Of a stretch of DNA of 64,000 bases, positions 748 to 50,355 are shown one piece after another. The stretch covers positions 292 through 64,291 of IMG/VR virus record IMGVR_UViG_3300009788_000012, one strand, 5' to 3'. A program made the position numbers and the translations under genes. Each line of letters begins with the position of its first letter. Positions within the stretch are counted from its first letter, which is position 1. The notes under the pieces were generated by a model. The model was not told the DNA's origin and ran no database searches. It saw only the letters and a list, made by a program, of their open reading frames with translations. This DNA comes from a virus. Lineage: Duplodnaviria > Caudoviricetes.

Positions 748-1008
748 CTAACTATTGATTCGGCATCCCGAACAACAAACCCTGTTGTCCGAAGCACTAG
801 CGGTACAGCAGTGACTGCACACCCGCTTACCACACCCGTCACAAATGTATGCGCCATATTCTACGCCGCATATTTCGCACAGGTTTTTTTCGCACAGGTT
901 TTCATTGTTTTTTGTCTCCTCCTCCTCCTCCACCGTCGAGAAAGACAAACCTTTCTCTTCTCCGGGCTTCTTCCCGGCGAGGAACAATAGTATTCCTAAA
1001 CCATTCAT
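748..1008 (-). CDS. small Cys-rich (B-box-like zinc finger) protein
   Basis: CEICG...ICDGCGKRVCSHCC...VCCSGC. Confidence 0.5.
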   Translation of the reverse strand: MNGLGILLFLAGKKPGEEKGLSFSTVEEEEETKNNENLCEKNLCEICGVEYGAYICDGCGKRVCSHCCTASASDNRVCCSGCRINS

Positions 1009-1422: not shown

Positions 1423-2466
1423 CTAATTTAATTCAAAATTCTCACACGCGAATGTACCCGAGTGGACACATGTTGGGACATTTGCGCAATCGACGCATTT
1501 GCTTGGATGATGTTGTCTACATAACTTACCTGCAAATATTCGAACATACTTAGCGCCTTCGACGACGGTGTTGGGGCACATCATGCACTCCTTTTGACAT
1601 ATATTATATTGGGGCTCATTAAGGGGTTTCTCTTCCTCTTCTTTCTTCTCCACCTCCTCCCCTGTCAACTCCAACAATCGATTCTTTGCCTTCTCCGACC
1701 ACACAGGCAAGTCGTCCAGCTCAGCGGGAAGATCCCCTGCGTCAATCATCTCTTTGGTGTGGATGAGGCAGTGGACATTCCAGAAGGCAGCAGCCAAATG
1801 ATCTTCGTCGTCGAGCCCCACTGCAAACTTCAGCATGTGGCGCATGGCGCTGTTGTAGTACTCAGACAACGGCATCCCTTTCTCCCAGTTCCTGGCGGCA
1901 TACTTTCTGGCGCCACGCTCCATGTGGATAGCCGCTCGAGCGAAAGCAAACGGAGAGAGGAGGTCATAAGCCCCCTTCACTTTATCATCCGCGCCCCTGT
2001 CCCTCACGGCCCCGCTCTCAAACTCTCGGCGGTGGCCAGAATCCTTGATCAAGGATTCGCCTGCGGCAGAGTCTTTAATCGAGGCATCGCCCTCTCTAGC
2101 GAGCGGGGCAACGATTGCGCCGGTCGACTCGAAGATGGGCGATGCGTCGCTAGTGGATTCTTCCAGACCCTCAACAATACCGTCAATGACCTTGACGAAT
2201 TCCTCTTGGGCCGTGCGCAGCCTAAGCTTGATAAAATACTCACACGATTCAGTATTCCAGTTTTCGACAGATGAGTCGGTTGCACCTAGTTGTAAGCAGA
2301 TTTCACGCTTAATGTAAGGAGTCAAATCCACGGCAGCATCATTCTTCTCTGAGGGATCGGTGATAAAGAAAAACGTTCCATCACTTAATTGGACATCGAC
2401 ACCCCATACATCGACTTCATCGTCAGGTATCCGCTCAATCTTAGCGCTCTTTAGTGTCTTCGACAT
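1423..2466 (-). CDS. dATP/dGTP diphosphohydrolase-domain (DUF5664-like) protein with extra N- and Cys-rich C-terminal domains
   Basis: DSGxRREFESGAVRD...YDLL...GARKYAARNWEKGMP...AMRH...DEDHLAAAFWN signature typical of phage DUF5664 proteins. Confidence 0.8.
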   Translation of the reverse strand: MSKTLKSAKIERIPDDEVDVWGVDVQLSDGTFFFITDPSEKNDAAVDLTPYIKREICLQLGATDSSVENWNTESCEYFIKLRLRTAQEEFVKVIDGIVEGLEESTSDASPIFESTGAIVAPLAREGDASIKDSAAGESLIKDSGHRREFESGAVRDRGADDKVKGAYDLLSPFAFARAAIHMERGARKYAARNWEKGMPLSEYYNSAMRHMLKFAVGLDDEDHLAAAFWNVHCLIHTKEMIDAGDLPAELDDLPVWSEKAKNRLLELTGEEVEKKEEEEKPLNEPQYNICQKECMMCPNTVVEGAKYVRIFAGKLCRQHHPSKCVDCANVPTCVHSGTFACENFELN

Positions 2467-8606: not shown

Positions 8607-9836
8607 CTACCCCTTTATCACCGCAATCGGTGTCAACTCAGTGACGATCTCGACGAGGTCGCTTTGCTGAGCCATAACCTCGTCGATGTCTTTGTAAGCT
8701 CCCGGGGCTTCGTCGAGGTCGTTAGCATTCGTCATGGTGTGCTTGATGCCCTCCATAATCGCCTGTTGATCGGCAAGGTCTAATGTCTCTTTCGCTTTCT
8801 TGCGGCTCATCCTCCGTCCGGCCCCATGCGAGCATGACATGAAGCTGTTTGGATTGCCGAGTCCCTTGACAATGTAGCTCTTCGTACCTTGGGAGCCCGG
8901 GATGATACCCAGCTCACCAGCACGTGCCCTCGTCGCGCCCTTGCGGTGAACCATCACGTTCTTGCCAAAGTGGTTCTCAAGGGCCGCGTAGTTGTGGGCG
9001 ATGTCGATGTTTTCCTTCTGGCTAGGGTTCATAGACGTGACAGGAAAGTGTTTCCACCCCTCCGCCCTACGGTTGTGAAACACATTAGCAAGCGCTGCCC
9101 TCACCTTGCACCCCATCTCAAAGCGATTGATCTGGGCATACCTGACACACCAGTTCATCTCTCGGATATACGTCGCGTGAGAAACTCCGTGTATATAATG
9201 CTCTCCCGGCATAATATCTGCCAGAAACGCCAGGTCGTCTTGCGTATCCGAAAACCAGGCGGCGTTCAGCTCTTTAGCTACCTTGTTATAGTAGTCAGCA
9301 ATCTGCTTGCCGACATTGCGGCTCCCTGAGTGAATCATCACCCAGACCCACCCCTCCCCGTCTTTTTGTATCTCAATGAAATGGTTGCCTCCTCCTAAGG
9401 TGCCAAGCTGTTGGGTGGCGTTCTTTTTGTGCTTACCCGCAATAGGACACAGCCAATCATTAGGGAGTTGCCTGTATGTATATGGCGTCCTGGCGTGCTT
9501 TTTACAGCCAACCGGTACCGTGCTGCGGATGATGTCGATTATTTGCTCAAGACGCTCATAGGTTAGGTCGTCAGCCGTCAGCACGGTCCTGAAGGCATAG
9601 ACGCCACATCCAATATCAACCCCTACAGCGTTGGGTATAACGACGTTTTGGTCGGTCGCTAACACACCACCGATAGGCATACCGTAGCCCATGTGGCAGT
9701 CCGGCATGATTGCGATATGGTGGAAGGCGAAGGGGAGACGAGCTAAATTATAGATCTGGTCGAGTGCGCCCGCCTCGATATTGGGGCACCAACTCTTGAC
9801 ATGAATACCGCAGTCCGTTTCGAATGCTTCGTGCAT
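8607..9836 (-). CDS. rtcB: RtcB 3'-phosphate/5'-OH RNA ligase
   Basis: MPDCHMGYGMPIGGV, VGVDIGCG, QLGTLGGGNHFIE, HSGSR, HNYA, HRKGAT, IPGSQG, SCSHGAGR, DEAPGAYKDI; AAGGAG RBS. Confidence 0.97.
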   Translation of the reverse strand: MHEAFETDCGIHVKSWCPNIEAGALDQIYNLARLPFAFHHIAIMPDCHMGYGMPIGGVLATDQNVVIPNAVGVDIGCGVYAFRTVLTADDLTYERLEQIIDIIRSTVPVGCKKHARTPYTYRQLPNDWLCPIAGKHKKNATQQLGTLGGGNHFIEIQKDGEGWVWVMIHSGSRNVGKQIADYYNKVAKELNAAWFSDTQDDLAFLADIMPGEHYIHGVSHATYIREMNWCVRYAQINRFEMGCKVRAALANVFHNRRAEGWKHFPVTSMNPSQKENIDIAHNYAALENHFGKNVMVHRKGATRARAGELGIIPGSQGTKSYIVKGLGNPNSFMSCSHGAGRRMSRKKAKETLDLADQQAIMEGIKHTMTNANDLDEAPGAYKDIDEVMAQQSDLVEIVTELTPIAVIKG

Positions 9837-10255
9837 CTGTTTGCTCCTTCTGTTGTACCGCCTATGTTGTATAATGCCCGTCTCTCCGGGCTGTCACGCC
9901 GTTCCGTGGTTGTCCAATTCCAGGCGTCCTCGTATCCGACTTACCAAACCACTTGGCCGCATCAGTCTAATGGCTTTCCGGTGCGATGAGCATCATGTTC
10001 ACCATAGCTCACAGAATTTGACATCCCGGTAACCATCAAGGCGTGGCCTTGTGCTAGGTTAGAATTTCCAGCAAACTCAGGAGTGCGCACTGGTGTAGCT
10101 CCTCCGGGACTTGAAAACTATTCAAATGTTATGTATCAAAGCTGGCTCGTTAATTGGTGAGCCACGCCATCGCGGGCGCCTGTTTTAGTGTCCTCTGTGG
10201 GGGCAATTATCCGCGCTTTTCGAGGGATGCCATCCTCCGTATGCAATGACTAAAC

Positions 10256-10335
10256 TGGTACCCGACGACGGGACTCGAACCCGCAAACACCACGACTCTT
10301 AATCAGGCTCGCTATGCCAATTCGCGTACGTGGGT
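10256..10335 (-). tRNA. atypical tRNA (Leu-like; anticodon AAG or TAA ambiguous), CCA-ended
   Basis: ACCCACG-TA-CGC GAATTGGCATA GCG-A-GCCTGA TTAAGAG TCGTGGT-GTTT-GCGGG TTCGAGT CCCGT-CGTCGGGT-A-CCA. Bulged acceptor stem and irregular anticodon stem. Confidence 0.65.
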
Positions 10336-10532
10336 GACCAGTAAAGATTATTCAAATTTTAGGTCCACCCCACAGGAAGTCATCCCGACTAAAGCGTTTT
10401 AGCCCCGTAGACCAGCGGGTAGGGCGGATAATGGTCAAATATTCTTAATCCTCGCACCCCTTCTCGACGAACAGACGTCTACTTTGGCGGCGAACGCATC
10501 AAGTTTCGATGCGGTGCGAGGAATAAAAATAT

Positions 10533-10601
10533 GGGAGGTGCTCTATCCGCTGAGCTACACGTATGGGGGCGTGGCGGGATTTGAACCCACGACCTCCTCC
10601 C
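10533..10601 (-). ncRNA. circularly permuted tRNA-like RNA 1 (short acceptor stem)
   Basis: GGGAGG-AGGTC-GTGGG TTCAAAT CCCGC-CACG CCCCCATA CGTG-TA-GCTC AGCGGATA GAGC-A-CCTCCC. Confidence 0.85.
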
Positions 10602-10702
10602 TAAAGCTTATTCAAATTTCAGGGGCGCCCGCCTAGCGGCTTCAAAGGCCTATGCGAAGCAATACGGTTTCAGTATTTTTATCGAGAGACGGGCGCAAAC
10701 AC

Positions 10703-10775
10703 GGGAGGCGAGATGACCACTTCTATATACACCCCTGACGGGTGTAGCCGGATTCGAACCACGCGATCTCCTCCC
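10703..10775 (-). ncRNA. circularly permuted tRNA-like RNA 2
   Basis: GGGAGG-AGATC-GCGTGG TTCGAAT CCGGC-TACACCC GTCAG GGGTGTA-TA-TAGA AGTGGTCA TCTC-G-CCTCCC; perfect 7-bp acceptor stem closed by a 5-nt loop. Confidence 0.85.
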
Positions 10776-10781
10776 TAAAAC

Positions 10782-10860
10782 AGGGAGGTGCTCTACCTAC
10801 CAGTTGAGCTACGTCGCCCTGAGGGGGCGTCGGCAGGACTCGAACCTGCATCTCCTCCTT
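10782..10860 (-). ncRNA. circularly permuted tRNA-like RNA 3
   Basis: AAGGAGG-AGAT-GCAGG TTCGAGT CCTGC-CGACGCCC CCTCA GGGCGACG-TA-GCTC AACTGGTAGGTA GAGC-A-CCTCCCT. Confidence 0.88.
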
Positions 10861-11172
10861 AAAACTGTTCATTCAAATTTTATGATTGCATTCGCGGAAG
10901 GGCGGCGCCCTTTAAGGATGCCCGCCCTTCCGCTCGACATAGGAGGTGGCGATATTTTTAGTGAGACGCCATCACTGTAAGTTTGGTTAGCCAGCAAAAG
11001 TAATCCATGCCTCCTACGATTGTTCAACTGTAGTCATTGCTCTTGGCGAGTAGTCTCGCGTCAAACATTAGGCATTGGTCTTCTCCTTTTGGGTGCTTTC
11101 CCGTGCGGGGCACAAATTCTATTTTCAACTTGTTGATGGGTGTCTTACCCGTTCTCCCCTCAACTTGACCTA

Positions 11173-11201
11173 AGTGTACACGAAAACGATCCGTTTGTCA
11201 A
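11173..11201 (-). promoter_or_regulatory. sigma70-type promoter for the ncRNA array-rtcB transcript
   Basis: TTGACA-17 nt-TACACT on the minus strand with an AT-rich upstream segment. Confidence 0.8.
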
Positions 11202-11240
11202 GTACTTTCTCAAAAAACTTTTAGAGGGGCGCAGCCCACT

Positions 11241-11612
11241 CTACAGCGCATCTTTCTTCCTGTGGTTCCGCCACGCGAGCCAGCCGCCCATGCGAACACC
11301 AGCCCAGATGATGCGTGCCTTCTTCGCGCGGCACTCCTTCATGGCTACTAGGAATATCTTGTCGCACTCTTTACGTGTATAAACACCAATATCATACAGA
11401 TAGTCGTGCAATACTGCTGCCTCCCCGTGACGCCCCCAGCGGGGCACTATGTTCCAGAGGCCGCGCGGTACAGACGCAAAGTCCGTGACGAAGCCGGCGG
11501 GCACTGTGATGACGATACCTAATTCGTCGTATCGATACCTTAAGGGCTGCATTAGCCTCCATCGCTTACCGTCACCCAATGGGGTTACTACTAGTTTGTT
11601 TGTGAATGGCAT
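11241..11612 (-). CDS. DUF1353-family protein
   Basis: VPAGFVTDFASVPR...AAVLHDYLY...RKECDKIF...GVRMGG. Confidence 0.88.
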   Translation of the reverse strand: MPFTNKLVVTPLGDGKRWRLMQPLRYRYDELGIVITVPAGFVTDFASVPRGLWNIVPRWGRHGEAAVLHDYLYDIGVYTRKECDKIFLVAMKECRAKKARIIWAGVRMGGWLAWRNHRKKDAL

Positions 11613-36175: not shown

Positions 36176-36886
36176 CTAGGAGCTTCTATCCCAGCTCCTG
36201 GTAATCTTGCCGTCGACATGGCACTTAAAGGACTGTGCTGCCTTTTTGTTAATAATCATGTCACAACGCTTAATGATGTGTCCTCTGTATATTTGCCCAA
36301 TCATCTCATTGAACAGAACGACCCATTCCGACCAAGGCAGAAGATCCAGGTAGGGTACACATCTTCGAATGTGAGTCCAGTCGTTACAATCAGTGAGTGT
36401 GGAAAATTTCAGATGAGCCCGATGTTCAAACTGATCAATAAACGAATCTAGGCTATCCCTCGTTCCTAACTGCCCTGAATAGATAATCGTGCTTATAGTC
36501 AGGTCCGAAGAGAAGTCAGATTGGCTAGGAAGCCGCCAAAGGCCAGACGGGTAGTTTGATATATTGAAGCAATCTATTACTCCGTCCACAGATTTGAGTA
36601 TTGACGGGAGGGTATAGTTCGTCGTAAGGACAGATCGAAGTTTGGACTCGCGCACAAGGTGCGCTATTTCCTTGAGTCGAGGATGCATGCACGGCTCCCC
36701 ACCCGTTAGCAGGACATCTTCGAGACCTTGTTGTTCGGCGAAGCTAATGGCGTTAGCTACGCTGTCAAGAGAAATAAACCCCTTGTCGCCCCTGTATTTA
36801 TCAATGCAAAACTGGCACGACTTGTTGCACTCATGCGTAAGTACTATGTTTATATACGAGCCCGCCACTTGTTTTACTGAGAACAT
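36176..36886 (-). CDS. radical SAM enzyme
   Basis: CNKSCQFC (CxxxCxxC), LTGGEP, LTTN. Confidence 0.88.
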   Translation of the reverse strand: MFSVKQVAGSYINIVLTHECNKSCQFCIDKYRGDKGFISLDSVANAISFAEQQGLEDVLLTGGEPCMHPRLKEIAHLVRESKLRSVLTTNYTLPSILKSVDGVIDCFNISNYPSGLWRLPSQSDFSSDLTISTIIYSGQLGTRDSLDSFIDQFEHRAHLKFSTLTDCNDWTHIRRCVPYLDLLPWSEWVVLFNEMIGQIYRGHIIKRCDMIINKKAAQSFKCHVDGKITRSWDRSS

Positions 36887-49553: not shown

Positions 49554-49584
49554 TGTAAAAAACTCCTCTTTACGTTTTGTATAG

Positions 49585-49614
49585 ATTGTAACACTTATTG
49601 TATATAAATGTCAA
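49585..49614 (-). promoter_or_regulatory. sigma70-type promoter for terS
   Basis: TTGACA-18 nt-TACAAT. Confidence 0.7.
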
Positions 49615-49617
49615 ATT

Positions 49618-49703
49618 CCTAGTGTTTCAAAATGAAACACTAGGCGTATATCGCAAAATGCCGATATACACAAATATTGTCACTAAGTGACAAAGATTGT
49701 CAC
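49618..49703. promoter_or_regulatory. palindromic operator/enhancer-like sites
   Basis: CCTAGTGTTTCA-AAA-TGAAACACTAGG (49618-49644) and overlapping TTGTCAC-TAA-GTGACAA / GTGACAA-AGA-TTGTCAC (49677-49703). Confidence 0.6.
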
Positions 49704-49716
49704 GTGAATAATGACA

Positions 49717-49732
49717 TGCAATTCTCATGCCA
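49717..49732 (-). promoter_or_regulatory. sigma54 (-24/-12) promoter, leftward
   Basis: TGGCATG-AGAA-TTGCA, matching the TGGCACG-N4-TTGCW consensus. Confidence 0.6.
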
Positions 49733-49779
49733 ATATGCCAAAAGCCATAAGGTGTTGCAAATACTACACTTCCACGAAT

Positions 49780-49795
49780 TGGCACGCAACCTGCT
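49780..49795 (+). promoter_or_regulatory. sigma54 (-24/-12) promoter for the plus-strand early block
   Basis: TGGCACG-CAAC-CTGCT with GG-N10-GC spacing, ~45 nt before the first ATG. Confidence 0.65.
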
Positions 49796-49840
49796 ACATA
49801 CTACGCGACAATTGAATGAAACAACCGAAAGGAAACGATA

Positions 49841-50020
49841 ATGTATACACTCAAATTTGACGGAGTAACGATCCACACTTCAAGCGATGTAGGCTGCGAC
49901 TACTGGGCAAAAACAATCGCTTACGAAGAACATACTTATGTACACGTAACTAACGAGGACGGCGAACCGTTAAGAGTTTATCATCCTCTCGGTGGAATCA
50001 AAGATCCACTGAGAGCCTAG
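49841..50020 (+). CDS. 59-aa early hypothetical protein (not in ORF track)
   Basis: GAAAGGA RBS; MYTLKFDGVTIHTSSDVGCDYWAK... Confidence 0.55.
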   Translation: MYTLKFDGVTIHTSSDVGCDYWAKTIAYEEHTYVHVTNEDGEPLRVYHPLGGIKDPLRA

Positions 50021-50024
50021 CGCG

Positions 50025-50350
50025 GGGTATCAAATAGGATACACGAAGCGAAACACAACAACGGAGATCAAGGAAATGAATGCAATAACAGGCCAAGACA
50101 GACTAGATACACTCAAGGAATTAAGCGAATTACCCCATGAAGAAATGTTGACAGCCATAAGGAAGCATGCGCACACTCACAAATTCAAAGAGTGTCAATG
50201 CATGGTTTGCGGATATCTACTTACGTCCGTAGAATCGGTTTGCGGTACTTGCGTTATAGGCTTGATGTAACGCCTAGTGTCTCCCACTTGATACCCTTTC
50301 GCGGGTATCAAATAGGATACACCGAAGCGAAACACAACCAACGGAGATCA
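50025..50350 (+). repeat. direct intergenic repeat (copies at 50025-50070 and 50303-50350; partial third at 50686-50744)
   Basis: GGGTATCAAATAGGATACAC(C)GAAGCGAAACACAAC(C)AACGGAGATCA. Confidence 0.85.
50076..50270 (+). CDS. small zinc-finger early protein
   Basis: CMVCG...CGTC; AAGGA RBS. Confidence 0.55.
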   Translation: MNAITGQDRLDTLKELSELPHEEMLTAIRKHAHTHKFKECQCMVCGYLLTSVESVCGTCVIGLM

Positions 50351-50355
50351 GAACA

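What the first reader, a model, noticed from the sequence alone, without database searches (positions are those of the whole stretch)
9870..11201. 1.3-kb polycistronic array of unrelated structured RNAs from one promoter
Seen: besides the tRNA-like units there are separate stem-closed modules at 10940-11016 (TAGGAGG/CCTCCTA stem, the same helix as the permuted units), 10894-10933 (12-bp hairpin), 10625-10696, 10449-10522, 10364-10428, 10143-10237, 10024-10109 and 9876-10011 (ending GCCCG-GAGAGA-CGGGC). Each is bounded by U/A-rich linkers. Inference: one transcript is cut into many 60-130-nt RNAs, a possible decoy or sponge panel feeding into the rtcB-nuclease-Sak4-helicase operon, or alternatively one large ornate RNA. 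I cannot assign any module to a named family.
Basis: partly seen in the sequence, partly recalled or inferred. Interest (0 to 1): 0.8.

Follow-up and report, generated by a model that had tools for sequence, protein, structure and literature searches.

The report
Phage tRNA-mimic RNA array before rtcB
A 1.3-kb gene-free stretch of a phage genome, just ahead of its RNA-repair ligase gene, appears to encode a string of small structured RNAs, several of them tRNA look-alikes of a known bacterial kind; it is an unusual variant, but so far rests on one genome with no expression data.

Summary
Partly confirmed. The window is a complete 64-kb phage. Positions 9837-11240 are its largest ORF-free stretch. 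It lies on the minus strand between a sigma-70-like promoter and rtcB.

Of the eight flagged modules:
- Three are robust: 10894-10933, 10625-10696 and 10449-10522.
- Two are moderate: 10364-10428 and 9876-10011.
- Two are weak: 10940-11016 and 10024-10109.
- One folds no better than shuffles: 10143-10237.

The 'permuted units' between them match Rfam YrlA below threshold (39.4 and 27.4 bits; cut-off 69). They have the T-arm, loop-capped acceptor and D-arm layout of YrlA. However, the array lacks the Ro60-binding motif and the genome has no Ro60 gene. A motif A(A/C)ATTTGAAT precedes four modules of the array and one ordinary tRNA 30 kb away, and occurs nowhere else in the window.

Best reading: a co-transcribed phage ncRNA array related to the bacterial rsr-yrlBA-rtcBA operon, holding Ro-independent tRNA mimics and unrelated GC-clamped RNAs. 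Their function (decoy or ligase cofactor) is inferred.

No homologous array was found, so there is no covariation evidence. No RNA run was listed.

Earlier notes of this scan report tRNA mimics beside RtcB in two other phage genomes.

The parts
11210..11246 (-). Terminator-like hairpin followed by a U6 run, directly after the stop codon of the upstream tail-module gene (11241-11612)
   Evidence: Fold (-14.1 kcal/mol, z -1.73). The upstream gene matches DUF1353 and the PHROG 'tail assembly chaperone' family. The consensus scan did not call it, because the U run starts 4 nt after the stem.
11173..11201 (-). Sigma-70-type promoter-like site, TTGACA-17-TACACT
   Evidence: 10 of 12 consensus matches, the best of 4 sites found (1.9 expected from shuffles).
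11020..11166 (-). Leader of the transcript. Weakly structured, and holds a 4-codon mini-ORF with a Shine-Dalgarno sequence (11061-11075).
   Evidence: z -1.55. The mini-ORF was read from the sequence.
10940..11016 (-). Module M1, closed by UAGGAGG/CCUCCUA. Weak; probably a decayed copy of the permuted tRNA-like unit.
   Evidence: z -1.46; closing helix probability 0.01. The 3' end CACCUCCUAU matches the 3' end of unit C at 9 of 10 positions (family D17). A 4-bp hairpin sits where the D arm would be (read from sequence). No T-loop.
10894..10933 (-). Module H, a 12-bp G+C-rich hairpin
   Evidence: z -4.59, 0 of 200 shuffles fold as well; probability 0.93.
10871..10880 (-). Leader motif AAAUUUGAAU, copy 1, ahead of unit A. 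Further copies lie at 10610-10619, 10350-10359 and 10120-10129, plus one at 40468-40477 ahead of an ordinary tRNA.
   Evidence: 5 matches in 64 kb, all on the minus strand; 0.34 expected; 0 of 100 shuffles reach 5.
10774..10871 (-). Unit A, a YrlA-type permuted tRNA mimic: T arm, then an acceptor stem of 8 positions (one A-A mismatch) capped by a 5-nt loop, then D arm, closed by GGAGG/CCUCC and an outer GAACAG/CUGUUU helix
   Evidence: YrlA 27.4 bits, E 0.0027 (gathering score 69); the MFE fold is exactly this layout, frequency 0.55, z -1.84.
10703..10776 (-). Unit B, a permuted tRNA-like unit with a perfect 7-bp capped acceptor stem but a degenerate T stem and D arm
   Evidence: Read from the sequence. 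Significantly similar to units C and A (z 9.8 and 8.0). Its fold is no better than shuffles (z -0.56).
10625..10696 (-). Module M2, with a 10-bp G+C clamp enclosing two hairpins
   Evidence: z -2.67; probability 1.00. No Rfam match.
10517..10614 (-). Unit C, a YrlA-type permuted tRNA mimic with a basal A/U helix (GAAUAAG/UUUAUUC), a 5x5 internal loop, a GGGAGG/CCUCCC helix, T arm, 4-bp capped acceptor stem and D arm
   Evidence: YrlA 39.4 bits, E 9.6e-7 (gathering score 69); the MFE fold shows this layout, z -2.38.
10449..10522 (-). Module M3, with a 10-bp G+C clamp enclosing two hairpins
   Evidence: z -3.07; probability 0.97. No Rfam match.
10364..10428 (-). Module M4, a compact four-way junction with a 10-bp closing stem and three hairpins. 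No T-loop.
   Evidence: z -2.29; probability 0.23. The closing helix is among those counted.
10253..10342 (-). Unit T, a nearly canonical tRNA-like gene (ARAGORN calls Leu-AAG at 10260-10335). It has an encoded ACCA end, a bulged C in the acceptor stem and a 5-bp extension that pairs with the CCA.
   Evidence: ARAGORN. Rfam tRNA 20.7 bits, below the gathering score of 29; z -2.22; extension helix probability 0.80. Cloverleaf features (U8, A14, G18-G19, U33, A37, T-loop UUCGAGU) were read from the sequence.
10143..10237 (-). Flagged module M5. Not supported as a structured unit.
   Evidence: z -0.31, 72 of 200 shuffles fold as well; its 5' hairpin helix (10222-10237) has probability 0.01.
10024..10109 (-). 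Module M6, a predicted four-way junction closed by UCCCGG/CCGGGA. Weak; it sits in a tRNA slot behind the leader motif and keeps a T-loop remnant at its 5' edge.
   Evidence: z -1.67; probability 0.09. families D6 and D15, show similarity to the T-loop and acceptor region of the other units.
9876..10011 (-). Module M7, several hairpins ending in GCCCG-GAGAGA-CGGGC, 39 nt ahead of the rtcB start codon
   Evidence: z -2.43; terminal hairpin probability 0.93.
8607..9836 (-). rtcB, an RNA 3'-phosphate ligase and the first protein gene of the transcription unit. It is followed by a PD-(D/E)XK exonuclease, a Sak4-like ATPase and a helicase.
   Evidence: Pfam RtcB E 2.9e-108, plus PDDEXK_1, AAA_24 and ResIII/DEAD. 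PHROG families 'exonuclease' and 'Sak4-like'.

Best explanation
The 1.33-kb ORF-free stretch is a phage operon of non-coding RNAs. It is read on the minus strand from one sigma-70-type promoter and continues into rtcB, an exonuclease gene, a Sak4-like gene and a helicase gene.

It holds two kinds of module:
1. tRNA-derived modules. These are three circularly permuted, loop-capped tRNA mimics of the YrlA type (A, B, C), one nearly canonical tRNA-like gene with an encoded CCA end (T), and two probable decayed copies (M1, M6).
2. Fold-back RNAs closed by long G+C helices and unrelated to one another. At least three are robust (H, M2, M3), with M4 and part of M7 less certain.

Four tRNA-type modules (A, C, T, M6) are preceded by the leader motif A(A/C)AUUUGAAU, which also precedes an ordinary tRNA elsewhere in this genome.

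Shown: the anatomy, the sub-threshold YrlA match, the absence of the Ro60-binding motif and of a Ro60 gene, and the excess of long closing helices over chance.

Inferred:
- The transcript is cut at the A/U-rich leaders by a host endonuclease of the RNase E type, and by RNase P where the acceptor stem has 7 bp.
- The G+C clamps protect the released RNAs.
- The tRNA mimics act without Ro60, together with RtcB and the phage's second RNA ligase, in the conflict over tRNA cleavage. They would serve as baits for tRNA-directed host nucleases or as cofactors or scaffolds for the ligase.
For: Non-coding status and transcription unit:
- This is the largest ORF-free gap of the genome, 1303-1404 nt.
- None of the 8 small ORFs in it hits a PHROG family.
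- One promoter-like site matches 10 of 12 consensus positions, and there is no minus-strand terminator-like site before rtcB.

YrlA-type units:
- Rfam YrlA matches of 39.4 bits (E 9.6e-7) and 27.4 bits (E 0.0027), with full-length alignments.
- Units A and C, folded alone, give the T arm, capped acceptor stem and D arm inside a closing helix.
- The 15:48 positions read A:U in unit A and G:C in unit C. Chen et al. 2014 describe the same alternation for YrlA.
- Five IMG/VR phage records gave YrlA-like matches (six in all) that also score below the cut-off, at 37.6-51.2 bits.

Fold-back modules:
- z -2.3 to -4.6 for five modules.
- Closing-helix probabilities of 0.93-1.00 for H, M2 and M3 in the full transcript.
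- Four long G+C closing helices, a count reached by 2 of 478 genome windows and 0 of 300 shuffles.

Leader motif:
- 5 of 5 occurrences in 64 kb lie on the minus strand just 5' of a tRNA-type module (with the sequence).

Link to RNA repair:
- rtcB lies directly downstream, and a second RNA ligase sits beside two more tRNAs.
- In bacteria YrlA and YrlB lie in rsr-rtcB operons and are processed from polycistronic precursors that can include a tRNA.
- Mycobacteriophage Bongo has a 5.8-kb array of tRNAs, a tmRNA and a GOLLD RNA ending about 170 nt ahead of its RtcB gene.
Against: - No homologous array was found anywhere I could search, so there is no conservation or covariation evidence for any non-tRNA module. 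Negative searches: blastn against 50,697 GenBank phage records; 27 IMG/VR and 12 GTDB loci encoding RtcB relatives; motif scans.
- There is no expression evidence.
- Both YrlA matches are far below Rfam's gathering score of 69.
- The motif GNCGAAN0-1G is absent from the transcribed strand of the array.
- No TROVE (Ro60) gene is present in the complete genome.
- Unit B, M1, M5 and M6 fold no better, or little better, than shuffles.
- In the full-length ensemble the closing helix of unit C had probability 0.00. The probes I set for units A and B were mis-registered and tested nothing.
- The helix-count thresholds were chosen after seeing the data, and the laxer 8-bp count is unremarkable.
- The functional part (decoy or cofactor) rests on gene neighbourhood and analogy only.
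Confidence: 0.5

Rival explanations
1. Only the tRNA-like units are functional RNAs. The G+C-clamped modules (H, M2, M3, M4, M7) are not RNAs with a function of their own. They would be spacers that insulate folding, block exonucleases or guide processing of the neighbouring tRNA mimics, or they would simply form a structured 5' UTR for rtcB.
For: - Each robust clamp directly follows a tRNA-type unit: M2 after B, M3 after C, H after M1.
- The clamps share no sequence with one another, no Rfam family and no detectable homologue elsewhere.
- M7 ends 39 nt before the rtcB start codon.
Against: - Simple protective hairpins do not need 65-75-nt multi-branch folds with 10-bp clamps.
- M2, M3 and M4 are each predicted to be junctions of two or three hairpins.
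- Bacterial Y RNA operons pair a tRNA-like YrlA with a second, non-tRNA-like Y RNA called YrlB.
Confidence: 0.2
2. The units are true Y RNAs that work through the host's Ro60 (Rsr) protein. The phage would supply Y RNAs to redirect the host's Ro60 and polynucleotide phosphorylase (PNPase) complex, the Ro60-tethered RNA-degrading machine of Chen et al. 2014, and the conserved AAAUUUGAAU leader would be a diverged Ro60-binding strand.
For: - The leader motif lies on the 5' strand of the basal helix of units A and C. This is the position of the Ro60-binding strand in the YrlA model alignment, and it shares the central GAA.
- Chen et al. 2014 state that Ro60 mainly contacts the 5' strand.
- In bacteria the rtcB neighbourhood is the usual home of Y RNAs.
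Against: - GNCGAAN0-1G is absent from the array.
- The genome has no rsr gene.
- The same motif also precedes an ordinary tRNA 30 kb away, which fits a processing signal better.
- The host is unknown, so whether it has Ro60 is unknown.
Confidence: 0.13
3. The permuted units are real tRNA genes in circularly permuted order. They would be matured by cleavage of the flanks, circularisation by the adjacent RtcB, and opening of the acceptor loop by RNase P and a 3' nuclease. This is the route described for red-algal permuted tRNA genes (recalled, not checked in a paper here).
For: - The gene order is 3' half, short linker, 5' half.
- Units A and B have 7-8-bp acceptor stems.
- A ligase that seals 2',3'-cyclic phosphate ends is encoded next door.
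- The heptamer (A/U)GUUUUA occurs on both flanks of unit A, so joining the flanks would give a 7-nt loop (read).
Against: - That loop, UGUUUUA, has G instead of the universal U33 and U instead of a purine at position 37.
- Unit C has only a 4-bp acceptor stem, and unit B has a degenerate T stem and D arm.
- No bulge-helix-bulge motif is evident, and no splicing endonuclease was found among the 62 ORFs scanned.
- Most YrlA RNAs are described as permuted tRNA look-alikes with closed acceptor loops that are not processed.
Confidence: 0.05
4. The stretch is one large ornate RNA, comparable in kind to GOLLD or ROOL, and not a set of separate RNAs.
For: - Phage tRNA arrays do carry such RNAs. GOLLD was found inside the arrays of Bongo (216 bits) and of IMG/VR locus L147 (270 bits).
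- The global MFE fold draws a long-range helix from 11073 to 9860.
Against: - No GOLLD, ROOL or other large-RNA match at E up to 10.
- The confident helices are all local.
- The region has an internal repeat of about 230-260 nt with tRNA-type units, which is typical of gene arrays.
- Linkers are unstructured and A/U-rich.
Confidence: 0.04
5. The stretch is a decaying remnant of a tRNA or tRNA-mimic array with little or no present function.
For: - Units B, M1 and M6 look degenerate.
- M5 is unstructured.
- No relative keeps the array.
Against: - A 64-kb phage genome that is otherwise tightly packed keeps 1.3 kb free of ORFs; the next largest gap is 802 nt.
- Units A and C keep intact tRNA-like folds and tertiary-pair positions.
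- Four copies of a 10-nt leader motif are preserved exactly or with one change.
Confidence: 0.08

Closest known systems
YrlA and YrlB Y RNAs of the bacterial rsr-yrlBA-rtcBA RNA-repair operon (Rfam RF02553; Chen et al. 2014, PMC4201824; Wang et al. 2018 preprint, 10.1101/312249)
   Same: - A permuted tRNA-like domain (T arm, loop-capped acceptor stem, D arm) sits on a bulged terminal helix.
- The 15:48 pair alternates between G:C and A:U.
- Several different small RNAs are made from one precursor, sometimes together with a tRNA.
- The genes lie next to rtcB.
- A tRNA-like RNA is paired with a non-tRNA-like one.
   Different: - There is no rsr (TROVE) gene in the genome.
- The 5' motif GNCGAAN0-1G is absent, and a different conserved leader, A(A/C)AUUUGAAU, takes its place.
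- Scores are far below the Rfam cut-off.
- The array is much longer, with about 12 modules over 1.3 kb, and is carried by a phage.
- The 22 phages with YrlA in Chen et al. 2014 were found by searching Ro60-encoding genomes.
tRNA, tmRNA and GOLLD array upstream of RtcB and a band-7 protein in Cluster M mycobacteriophages (Bongo, NC_041970)
   Same: A long gene-free array of tRNA-type and other structured RNAs, on the same strand as a phage rtcB gene and ending about 170 nt upstream of it.
   Different: - Bongo's array consists mostly of standard decoding tRNAs (20 annotated), plus a tmRNA and a GOLLD RNA.
- It gave no YrlA match at E up to 0.01.
- A band-7 gene follows its rtcB.
- The array studied here has at most one near-standard tRNA, no tmRNA, no GOLLD and no band-7 gene.
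b7a-tRNA, the tRNA-like RNA encoded beside RtcB and a band-7 protein (Burroughs and Aravind 2016, known to me only through the passage in Wang et al. 2018)
   Same: Unit T strongly resembles an authentic tRNA and lies beside rtcB. That passage says b7a-tRNA and YrlA can replace one another in such operons.
   Different: No band-7 domain was found among the 62 ORFs scanned. I could not read the defining paper, so its sequence features are untested.
Phage T4 tRNA gene cluster with the stable 'species 1' and 'species 2' RNAs (recalled from memory; no paper read here)
   Same: A phage polycistronic transcript that yields tRNAs together with other small stable RNAs of unknown function.
   Different: The T4 cluster holds eight decoding tRNAs and is not next to rtcB. 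The comparison is from memory only.

Membership tests
YrlA (Rfam RF02553) | Score at or above Rfam's gathering threshold of 69 bits | tested here: not met
   39.4 bits (10517-10614) and 27.4 bits (10774-10871). One search (gathering mode) gave no YrlA hit. Five IMG/VR phage records gave six look-alike matches that also stay at 37.6-51.2 bits.
YrlA (Rfam RF02553) | tRNA-like domain in the order T arm, loop-closed acceptor stem, D arm, mounted on a helix that stands in for the anticodon stem | tested here: met
   full-length alignments to the model; the MFE folds of units A and C show exactly this layout. Unit B meets it only in part, with a degenerate T stem and D arm.
YrlA (Rfam RF02553) | Tertiary-pair positions kept, including the Levitt pair 15:48 as G:C or A:U (Chen et al. 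2014) | tested here: met
   Read from the sequence. Unit C has G15 (10550) and C48 (10591). Unit A has A15 (10804) and U48 (10850).
YrlA (Rfam RF02553) | GNCGAAN0-1G motif near the 5' end, the presumed Ro60 contact | tested here: not met
   none of the 39 plus 91 matches in the window lies on the minus strand within 9870-11201. The nearest look-alike, CGCGAAUG at about 10891-10898, lacks the first G (read).
YrlA (Rfam RF02553) | Encoded within about 4 kb of a Ro60 (TROVE) gene and on the same strand | tested here: not met
   no TROVE match in the complete 64,291-bp record; the controls gave matches in 2 of 14 genomes. In a small sample of other viral records with YrlA-like hits, TROVE was present in 1 of 5.
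YrlA (Rfam RF02553) | Bound by Ro60 (Rsr) in vivo | not testable with these tools
   This needs immunoprecipitation or a binding assay. The host is unknown.
tRNA (Rfam RF00005), considered for unit T, 10260-10335 | Rfam tRNA gathering score of 29 bits and a standard cloverleaf | tested here: not met
   20.7 bits. ARAGORN does call it. As read from the sequence, the cloverleaf has a 3-bp D stem, a C-U mismatch in the anticodon stem and a bulged C in the acceptor stem, but it keeps U8, A14, GG, U33, A37, the T-loop and an encoded ACCA.
GOLLD, ROOL and other large phage ncRNAs | Match to the Rfam covariance model | tested here: not met
   no such family among the matches at E up to 10 over 9700-11400. 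GOLLD was readily found in controls.
Circularly permuted tRNA genes (red-algal type) | Flanks that form a cleavable bulge-helix-bulge motif and, once joined, a standard 7-nt anticodon loop | tested here: not met
   Read. The flanks of unit A would give UGUUUUA, with no U33 and no purine 37. The flanks of unit C form a 5x5 internal loop plus an A/U helix. The definition of the family is recalled, not read.
b7a-tRNA, band-7 and RtcB system | A band-7 (SPFH) protein gene next to the tRNA-like RNA and rtcB | tested here: not met
   no Band_7 hit among 62 ORFs, but not every ORF of the window was scanned. Phage examples with band-7 next to RtcB are phiCbK and Bongo.

The most novel reading that the evidence does not exclude
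The array is a Ro60-independent, RNA-based counter-defence cassette. It would be a panel of different tRNA mimics and G+C-clamped RNAs, released from one early transcript through a dedicated leader signal. These RNAs would soak up or misdirect host tRNA-directed nucleases and other tRNA-sensing defence proteins, while the co-transcribed RtcB reseals damaged tRNAs. The non-tRNA modules (M2, M3, M4) would then be new RNA classes, each with its own host target.
Probability: 0.15. Interest if true: 0.8.

Novelty: new variant of a known kind. Interest (0 to 1): 0.55.

Why it matters
Y RNA-like tRNA mimics are known as partners of the bacterial Ro60 protein, and their function is still unclear. Here a phage carries three of them, an odd tRNA and several unrelated structured RNAs in front of its RNA-repair ligase, with neither a Ro60 gene nor the Ro60-binding motif. 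That arrangement suggests the tRNA-like domain can work apart from Ro60, possibly with RtcB itself or against tRNA-targeting defence systems. This would give a compact, clonable 1.4-kb test object for that open question. The weakness is that it is a single metagenomic genome with an unknown host, no relatives and no RNA data.

Tried and rejected
Searches for homologues of the array, all negative:
- blastn ('distant' mode) of the array against 50,697 GenBank phage records found nothing.
- Relatives of the RtcB protein were at most 56% identical: 27 loci in IMG/VR and 12 in GTDB genomes. None shares DNA similarity with the array.
- Only 2 of those 39 loci have an ORF-free gap above 500 nt upstream of rtcB. 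Both gaps are A/T-rich stretches with small ORFs.
- The portal protein has no relative in IMG/VR.

Pattern scans:
- Linker motif alone in IMG/VR: 117 single, chance-like hits.
- Linker plus GGAGGAG in metagenomes: 117 hits, all ribosome-binding-site or terminator look-alikes. One hit contained a chance T-loop-like string, and none showed real similarity to the array.
- T-loop, D arm and CACCUCC: one hit, an ordinary pair of tandem tRNAs.
- Motif, GGAGGAG and GGTTC: 11 hits, none related to the array; 9 are copies of one unrelated hairpin.
- GGAG, T-loop and GTAGCTCA: at least 118 loci, a mix of tightly spaced tRNA pairs and YrlA-like units. None lies within 2 kb of an RtcB relative. Only the tRNA-like parts of the array resemble them.

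Other steps that led nowhere:
- Sequencing runs: no RNA holder was listed. The one DNA run listed may be the source sample, so I did not lay reads.
- Aligning the four repeat periods gave nothing convincing beyond the leader motif.
- A MAFFT alignment of units A, B and C was not consistent with the structure, so I built no covariance model.
- The idea that the leader motif is a general phage promoter is rejected. It occurs only before tRNA-type modules, and no -10 element follows at the right spacing.
- phiCbK has no tRNA between its band-7 and rtcB genes by ARAGORN.

Papers not held: Sim et al. 2020 review and Burroughs and Aravind 2016.

Literature searches found no paper in the held library describing phage YrlA-like arrays beside RtcB without Ro60. 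The supplementary tables of Chen et al. 2014, which list their phages, were not opened.


Full report
**Setting**

The window is almost the whole of a complete 64,291-bp virus record with direct terminal repeats. The genome has an SU10-type portal and adaptor, a terminase, and long tail or structural ORFs.

The flagged stretch lies on the minus strand. Upstream is the last gene of a structural block (11241-11612), which matches DUF1353 and the PHROG 'tail assembly chaperone' family. That gene is followed by a hairpin plus U6 run that looks like a terminator. Downstream is rtcB (8607-9836; Pfam RtcB, E 2.9e-108), then a PD-(D/E)XK exonuclease, a Sak4-like ATPase and a helicase.

A promoter-like site, TTGACA-17-TACACT, sits at 11201-11173. 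No terminator-like site was called on the minus strand before rtcB.

The stretch is the largest ORF-free gap of the genome: 1303 nt free of ORFs of 70 aa or more, against 802 nt for the next largest. The eight short ORFs inside it match no PHROG family.

**Check of the observation**

Folded alone against 200 dinucleotide shuffles, the eight flagged modules scored as follows:

| Module | z-score |
|---|---|
| 10894-10933 | -4.59 |
| 10449-10522 | -3.07 |
| 10625-10696 | -2.67 |
| 9876-10011 | -2.43 |
| 10364-10428 | -2.29 |
| 10024-10109 | -1.67 |
| 10940-11016 | -1.46 |
| 10143-10237 | -0.31 |

In the ensemble of the whole 1331-nt transcript, closing-helix probabilities were:
- 10625-10696: 1.00
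- 10449-10522: 0.97
- 10894-10933: 0.93
- terminal hairpin 9876-9891: 0.93
- 10364-10428: 0.23
- 10024-10109: 0.09
- 10940-11016: 0.01
- 10143-10237: only its 5' hairpin helix was tested, 0.01

- Fixed 100-nt windows give a modest shift: mean z -0.91 for 24 windows in the array against -0.30 for 470 outside, p 0.006.
- A lax count of closing helices (8 bp) is unremarkable: 8 in the array, and 79 of 478 control windows reach that.
- A strict count (at least 10 bp with at least 6 G-C pairs) gives 4. This is reached by 2 of 478 control windows and by 0 of 300 shuffles. The strict thresholds were set after seeing the data.
- Linkers have GC 0.28, against 0.56 in the modules.

Overall, three modules are robust, two are moderate, two are weak and one is not supported.

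**What the 'permuted units' are**

A permissive Rfam scan of 9700-11400 matched YrlA (RF02553, Y RNA-like) at 10517-10614 (39.4 bits, E 9.6e-7) and at 10774-10871 (27.4 bits, E 0.0027). Both alignments span the full model, and both are far below the gathering score of 69.

Folded alone, these two units adopt the YrlA layout: an outer helix, an internal loop, a GGAGG/CCUCC helix, a T arm, a loop-capped acceptor stem and a D arm.

A third unit (10703-10776) has a perfect 7-bp capped acceptor stem but a degenerate T stem and D arm. It is significantly similar to the other two.

Chen et al. 2014 describe this architecture, and Wang et al. 2018 describe most YrlA RNAs as circularly permuted tRNA look-alikes with closed acceptor loops. 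I read the Results and Discussion of Chen et al. and passages of the Wang et al. preprint. Chen et al. also report G15:C48 alternating with A15:U48. Unit C has G and C at those positions and unit A has A and U (read).

**Where the units fail the YrlA definition**

- The presumed Ro60-contact motif GNCGAAN0-1G is absent from the transcribed strand of the array.
- The complete genome has no TROVE gene.
- The scores are below the Rfam cut-off.

I therefore do not file the units as YrlA members. They are YrlA-type tRNA mimics. In a small sample of five other viral records with comparable sub-threshold YrlA hits, TROVE was present in 1 of 5 and RtcB in 0 of 5. Orphan phage copies of this fold are therefore not unique to this genome.

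**The other tRNA-type pieces**

ARAGORN calls a tRNA-Leu(AAG) at 10260-10335. Rfam's tRNA model gives it 20.7 bits, below the cut-off of 29.

Read from the sequence, it keeps U8, A14, G18-G19, U33, A37, a standard T arm and an encoded ACCA end. It also has a 3-bp D stem, a mismatch in the anticodon stem, a bulged C in the acceptor stem and a 5-bp extension that pairs with the CCA. That extension has probability 0.80.

Module 10024-10109 begins right after a T-loop-like UUCAAGU-CCCGG and shares an acceptor-like stretch with unit B (families D6 and D15). Module 10940-11016 ends in CACCUCCUAU, matching the 3' end of unit C at 9 of 10 positions (D17), and has a 4-bp hairpin in the D-arm slot. I read both as decayed tRNA-derived copies. 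This is an inference.

**A leader motif ties the tRNA-type modules together**

A(A/C)ATTTGAAT occurs five times in 64 kb, all on the minus strand. The expected count is 0.34, and 0 of 100 shuffles reach five.

Four copies lie in the array, ahead of unit A, unit C, unit T and module 10024-10109, with start-to-start spacings of 261, 260 and 230 nt between successive copies.

The fifth copy ends 2 nt before an ordinary tRNA at 40396-40465. The motif is therefore not a general promoter.

In units A and C the motif forms the 5' strand of the basal helix, the position of the Ro60-binding strand in the YrlA model alignment. Because it also precedes a normal tRNA, I favour a processing or protein-binding signal for tRNA-type transcripts. 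Its AAAUUU core fits the A/U-rich sites that RNase E prefers. That preference is recalled, not checked here.

**The non-tRNA modules**

H, M2, M3, M4 and M7 have no T-loop and no Rfam match at E up to 10. They show no significant similarity to one another or to the tRNA-type units: of 66 pairs, only the four pairs among the tRNA-like units A, B, C and T scored p 0.003, the floor of 300 shuffles.

The robust ones follow tRNA-type units directly: H after M1, M2 after B, M3 after C. This recalls the YrlA plus YrlB pairing of bacterial operons, where a tRNA-like Y RNA is made with a second, non-tRNA-like one from a single precursor. I could not assign them to any family.

**Search for relatives**

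No homologous array was found.
- blastn against GenBank phage records was negative.
- RtcB relatives are at most 56% identical in IMG/VR (27 loci), at most 53% in GTDB genomes (12 loci) and at most 44.6% in GenBank phages (682 records).
- None of the 39 fetched loci resembles the array or has a comparable gap.
- The portal has no IMG/VR relative.
- Four motif scans gave only chance hits or ordinary tRNAs.

No covariation test is therefore possible for any module. This is the main weakness of every reading below.

**Context from known systems**

- In bacteria, rsr, yrlB, yrlA and rtcB form an RNA-repair operon. Y RNAs have been proposed as cofactors of RtcB, and a tRNA-like 'b7a-tRNA' with a band-7 protein can take their place (passage).
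- Phages often carry RtcB and ATP-dependent RNA ligases, presumably to mend tRNAs cut by host nucleases (passages of Iyer et al. 2021).
- Mycobacteriophage Bongo has a 5.8-kb array of 20 tRNAs, a tmRNA and a GOLLD RNA ending about 170 nt upstream of RtcB, followed by a band-7 protein.
- phiCbK has a band-7 gene next to RtcB.
- The present phage also has a second RNA ligase beside two more tRNAs.
- Earlier notes of this scan report tRNA mimics beside RtcB in two other phage genomes without Ro60. I checked only the Bongo-type locus myself. At E up to 0.01 it gave no YrlA match there.

**Mechanism I consider most likely**

Shown: the anatomy described above.

Inferred:
- One early or middle transcript starts at about 11166.
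- Host endonucleases cut in the A/U-rich leaders. RNase P may open the capped 7-8-bp acceptor stems of units A and B, as reported for M. smegmatis YrlA.
- The G+C clamps stabilise the products.
- The tRNA mimics act without Ro60, together with RtcB, either as baits for tRNA-directed nucleases or as ligase cofactors.

I put 0.5 on this package. The RNA-array part is much more secure than the functional part.

Rivals: clamps as mere spacers or a UTR (0.2); host-Ro60-dependent Y RNAs (0.13); a decaying remnant (0.08); true permuted tRNAs matured through RtcB (0.05); one large RNA (0.04).

**Novelty**

This is a new variant of a known kind. The held literature contained no description of a Ro60-less phage array of YrlA-type mimics beside RtcB. 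Two key papers were not held, and the supplementary tables of Chen et al. 2014 were not opened.

Noticed in passing
window 40318-40477 (minus strand): A second tRNA locus lies beside a second RNA ligase gene (38766-39917; Pfam RNA_ligase and the PHA02142 OB domain). It holds a tRNA-Met (40318-40393) and a tRNA whose anticodon loop appears to have only 6 nt (40396-40465). ARAGORN gives that one no amino acid, and Rfam's tRNA model gives 54.2 bits. It is preceded by the same ACAUUUGAAU leader motif as the array. The listed ORF 39914-40450 overlaps both tRNAs, so it is probably shorter than listed or spurious.
   Followed up: partly
window 10771-10792 (minus strand): The 3' end of unit A and the 5' end of unit B can pair with each other instead, forming an anticodon-arm-like hairpin, CCUCCC-UGUUUUA-GGGAGG (z -2.87). 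This hairpin appears in the global MFE fold. The tandem units therefore have two competing folds.
   Followed up: partly
window 10684-10694 and 9876-9886 (minus strand): There is an 11-nt perfect complementarity between the 5' strand of module M2 (GCCCGUCUCUC) and the loop plus 3' strand of the terminal hairpin just ahead of rtcB. It could be chance; my rough estimate is 0.2 for an 11-mer within 1.3 kb.
   Followed up: no
window 11061-11075 (minus strand): The leader of the transcript holds a four-codon mini-ORF (Met-Pro-Asn-Val-stop), 7 nt after an AAGGAG Shine-Dalgarno sequence.
   Followed up: no
window 1423-2466 and 36176-36886 (minus strand): These ORFs match a dATP/dGTP diphosphohydrolase N-terminal domain and a radical SAM domain. 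Dam methylase and ThyX genes lie at 59481-60834. Together they hint that the phage modifies its DNA or its nucleotide pool.
   Followed up: no
window 916-931 and 59037-59049: GGAGGAG occurs in tandem overlapping runs at these two places. Overall it occurs 26 times in the window, against 9.9 expected.
   Followed up: no
window 49554-50355: This is the second largest ORF-free gap of the genome (802 nt), lying between genes on opposite strands. I did not examine it.
   Followed up: no
L397 (Mycobacterium phage Bongo) 2588-2671 and 5559-5634: Two unannotated tRNA-like matches lie in gaps of the annotated tRNA array: tRNA-Sec model 30.6 bits, and a partial tmRNA model match of 25 bits with E 3.5e-7. 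They may be tRNA mimics.
   Followed up: no
L147 766-1190 (IMG/VR contig): A GOLLD RNA (270 bits) lies inside a dense phage tRNA array, the same arrangement as in Bongo.
   Followed up: no
L206 1196-2947 (IMG/VR contig): A 1.75-kb gene-free stretch holds four tRNAs and one sub-threshold YrlA-like unit (50.3 bits). The record has no TROVE or RtcB match, but it is only 71% complete.
   Followed up: partly
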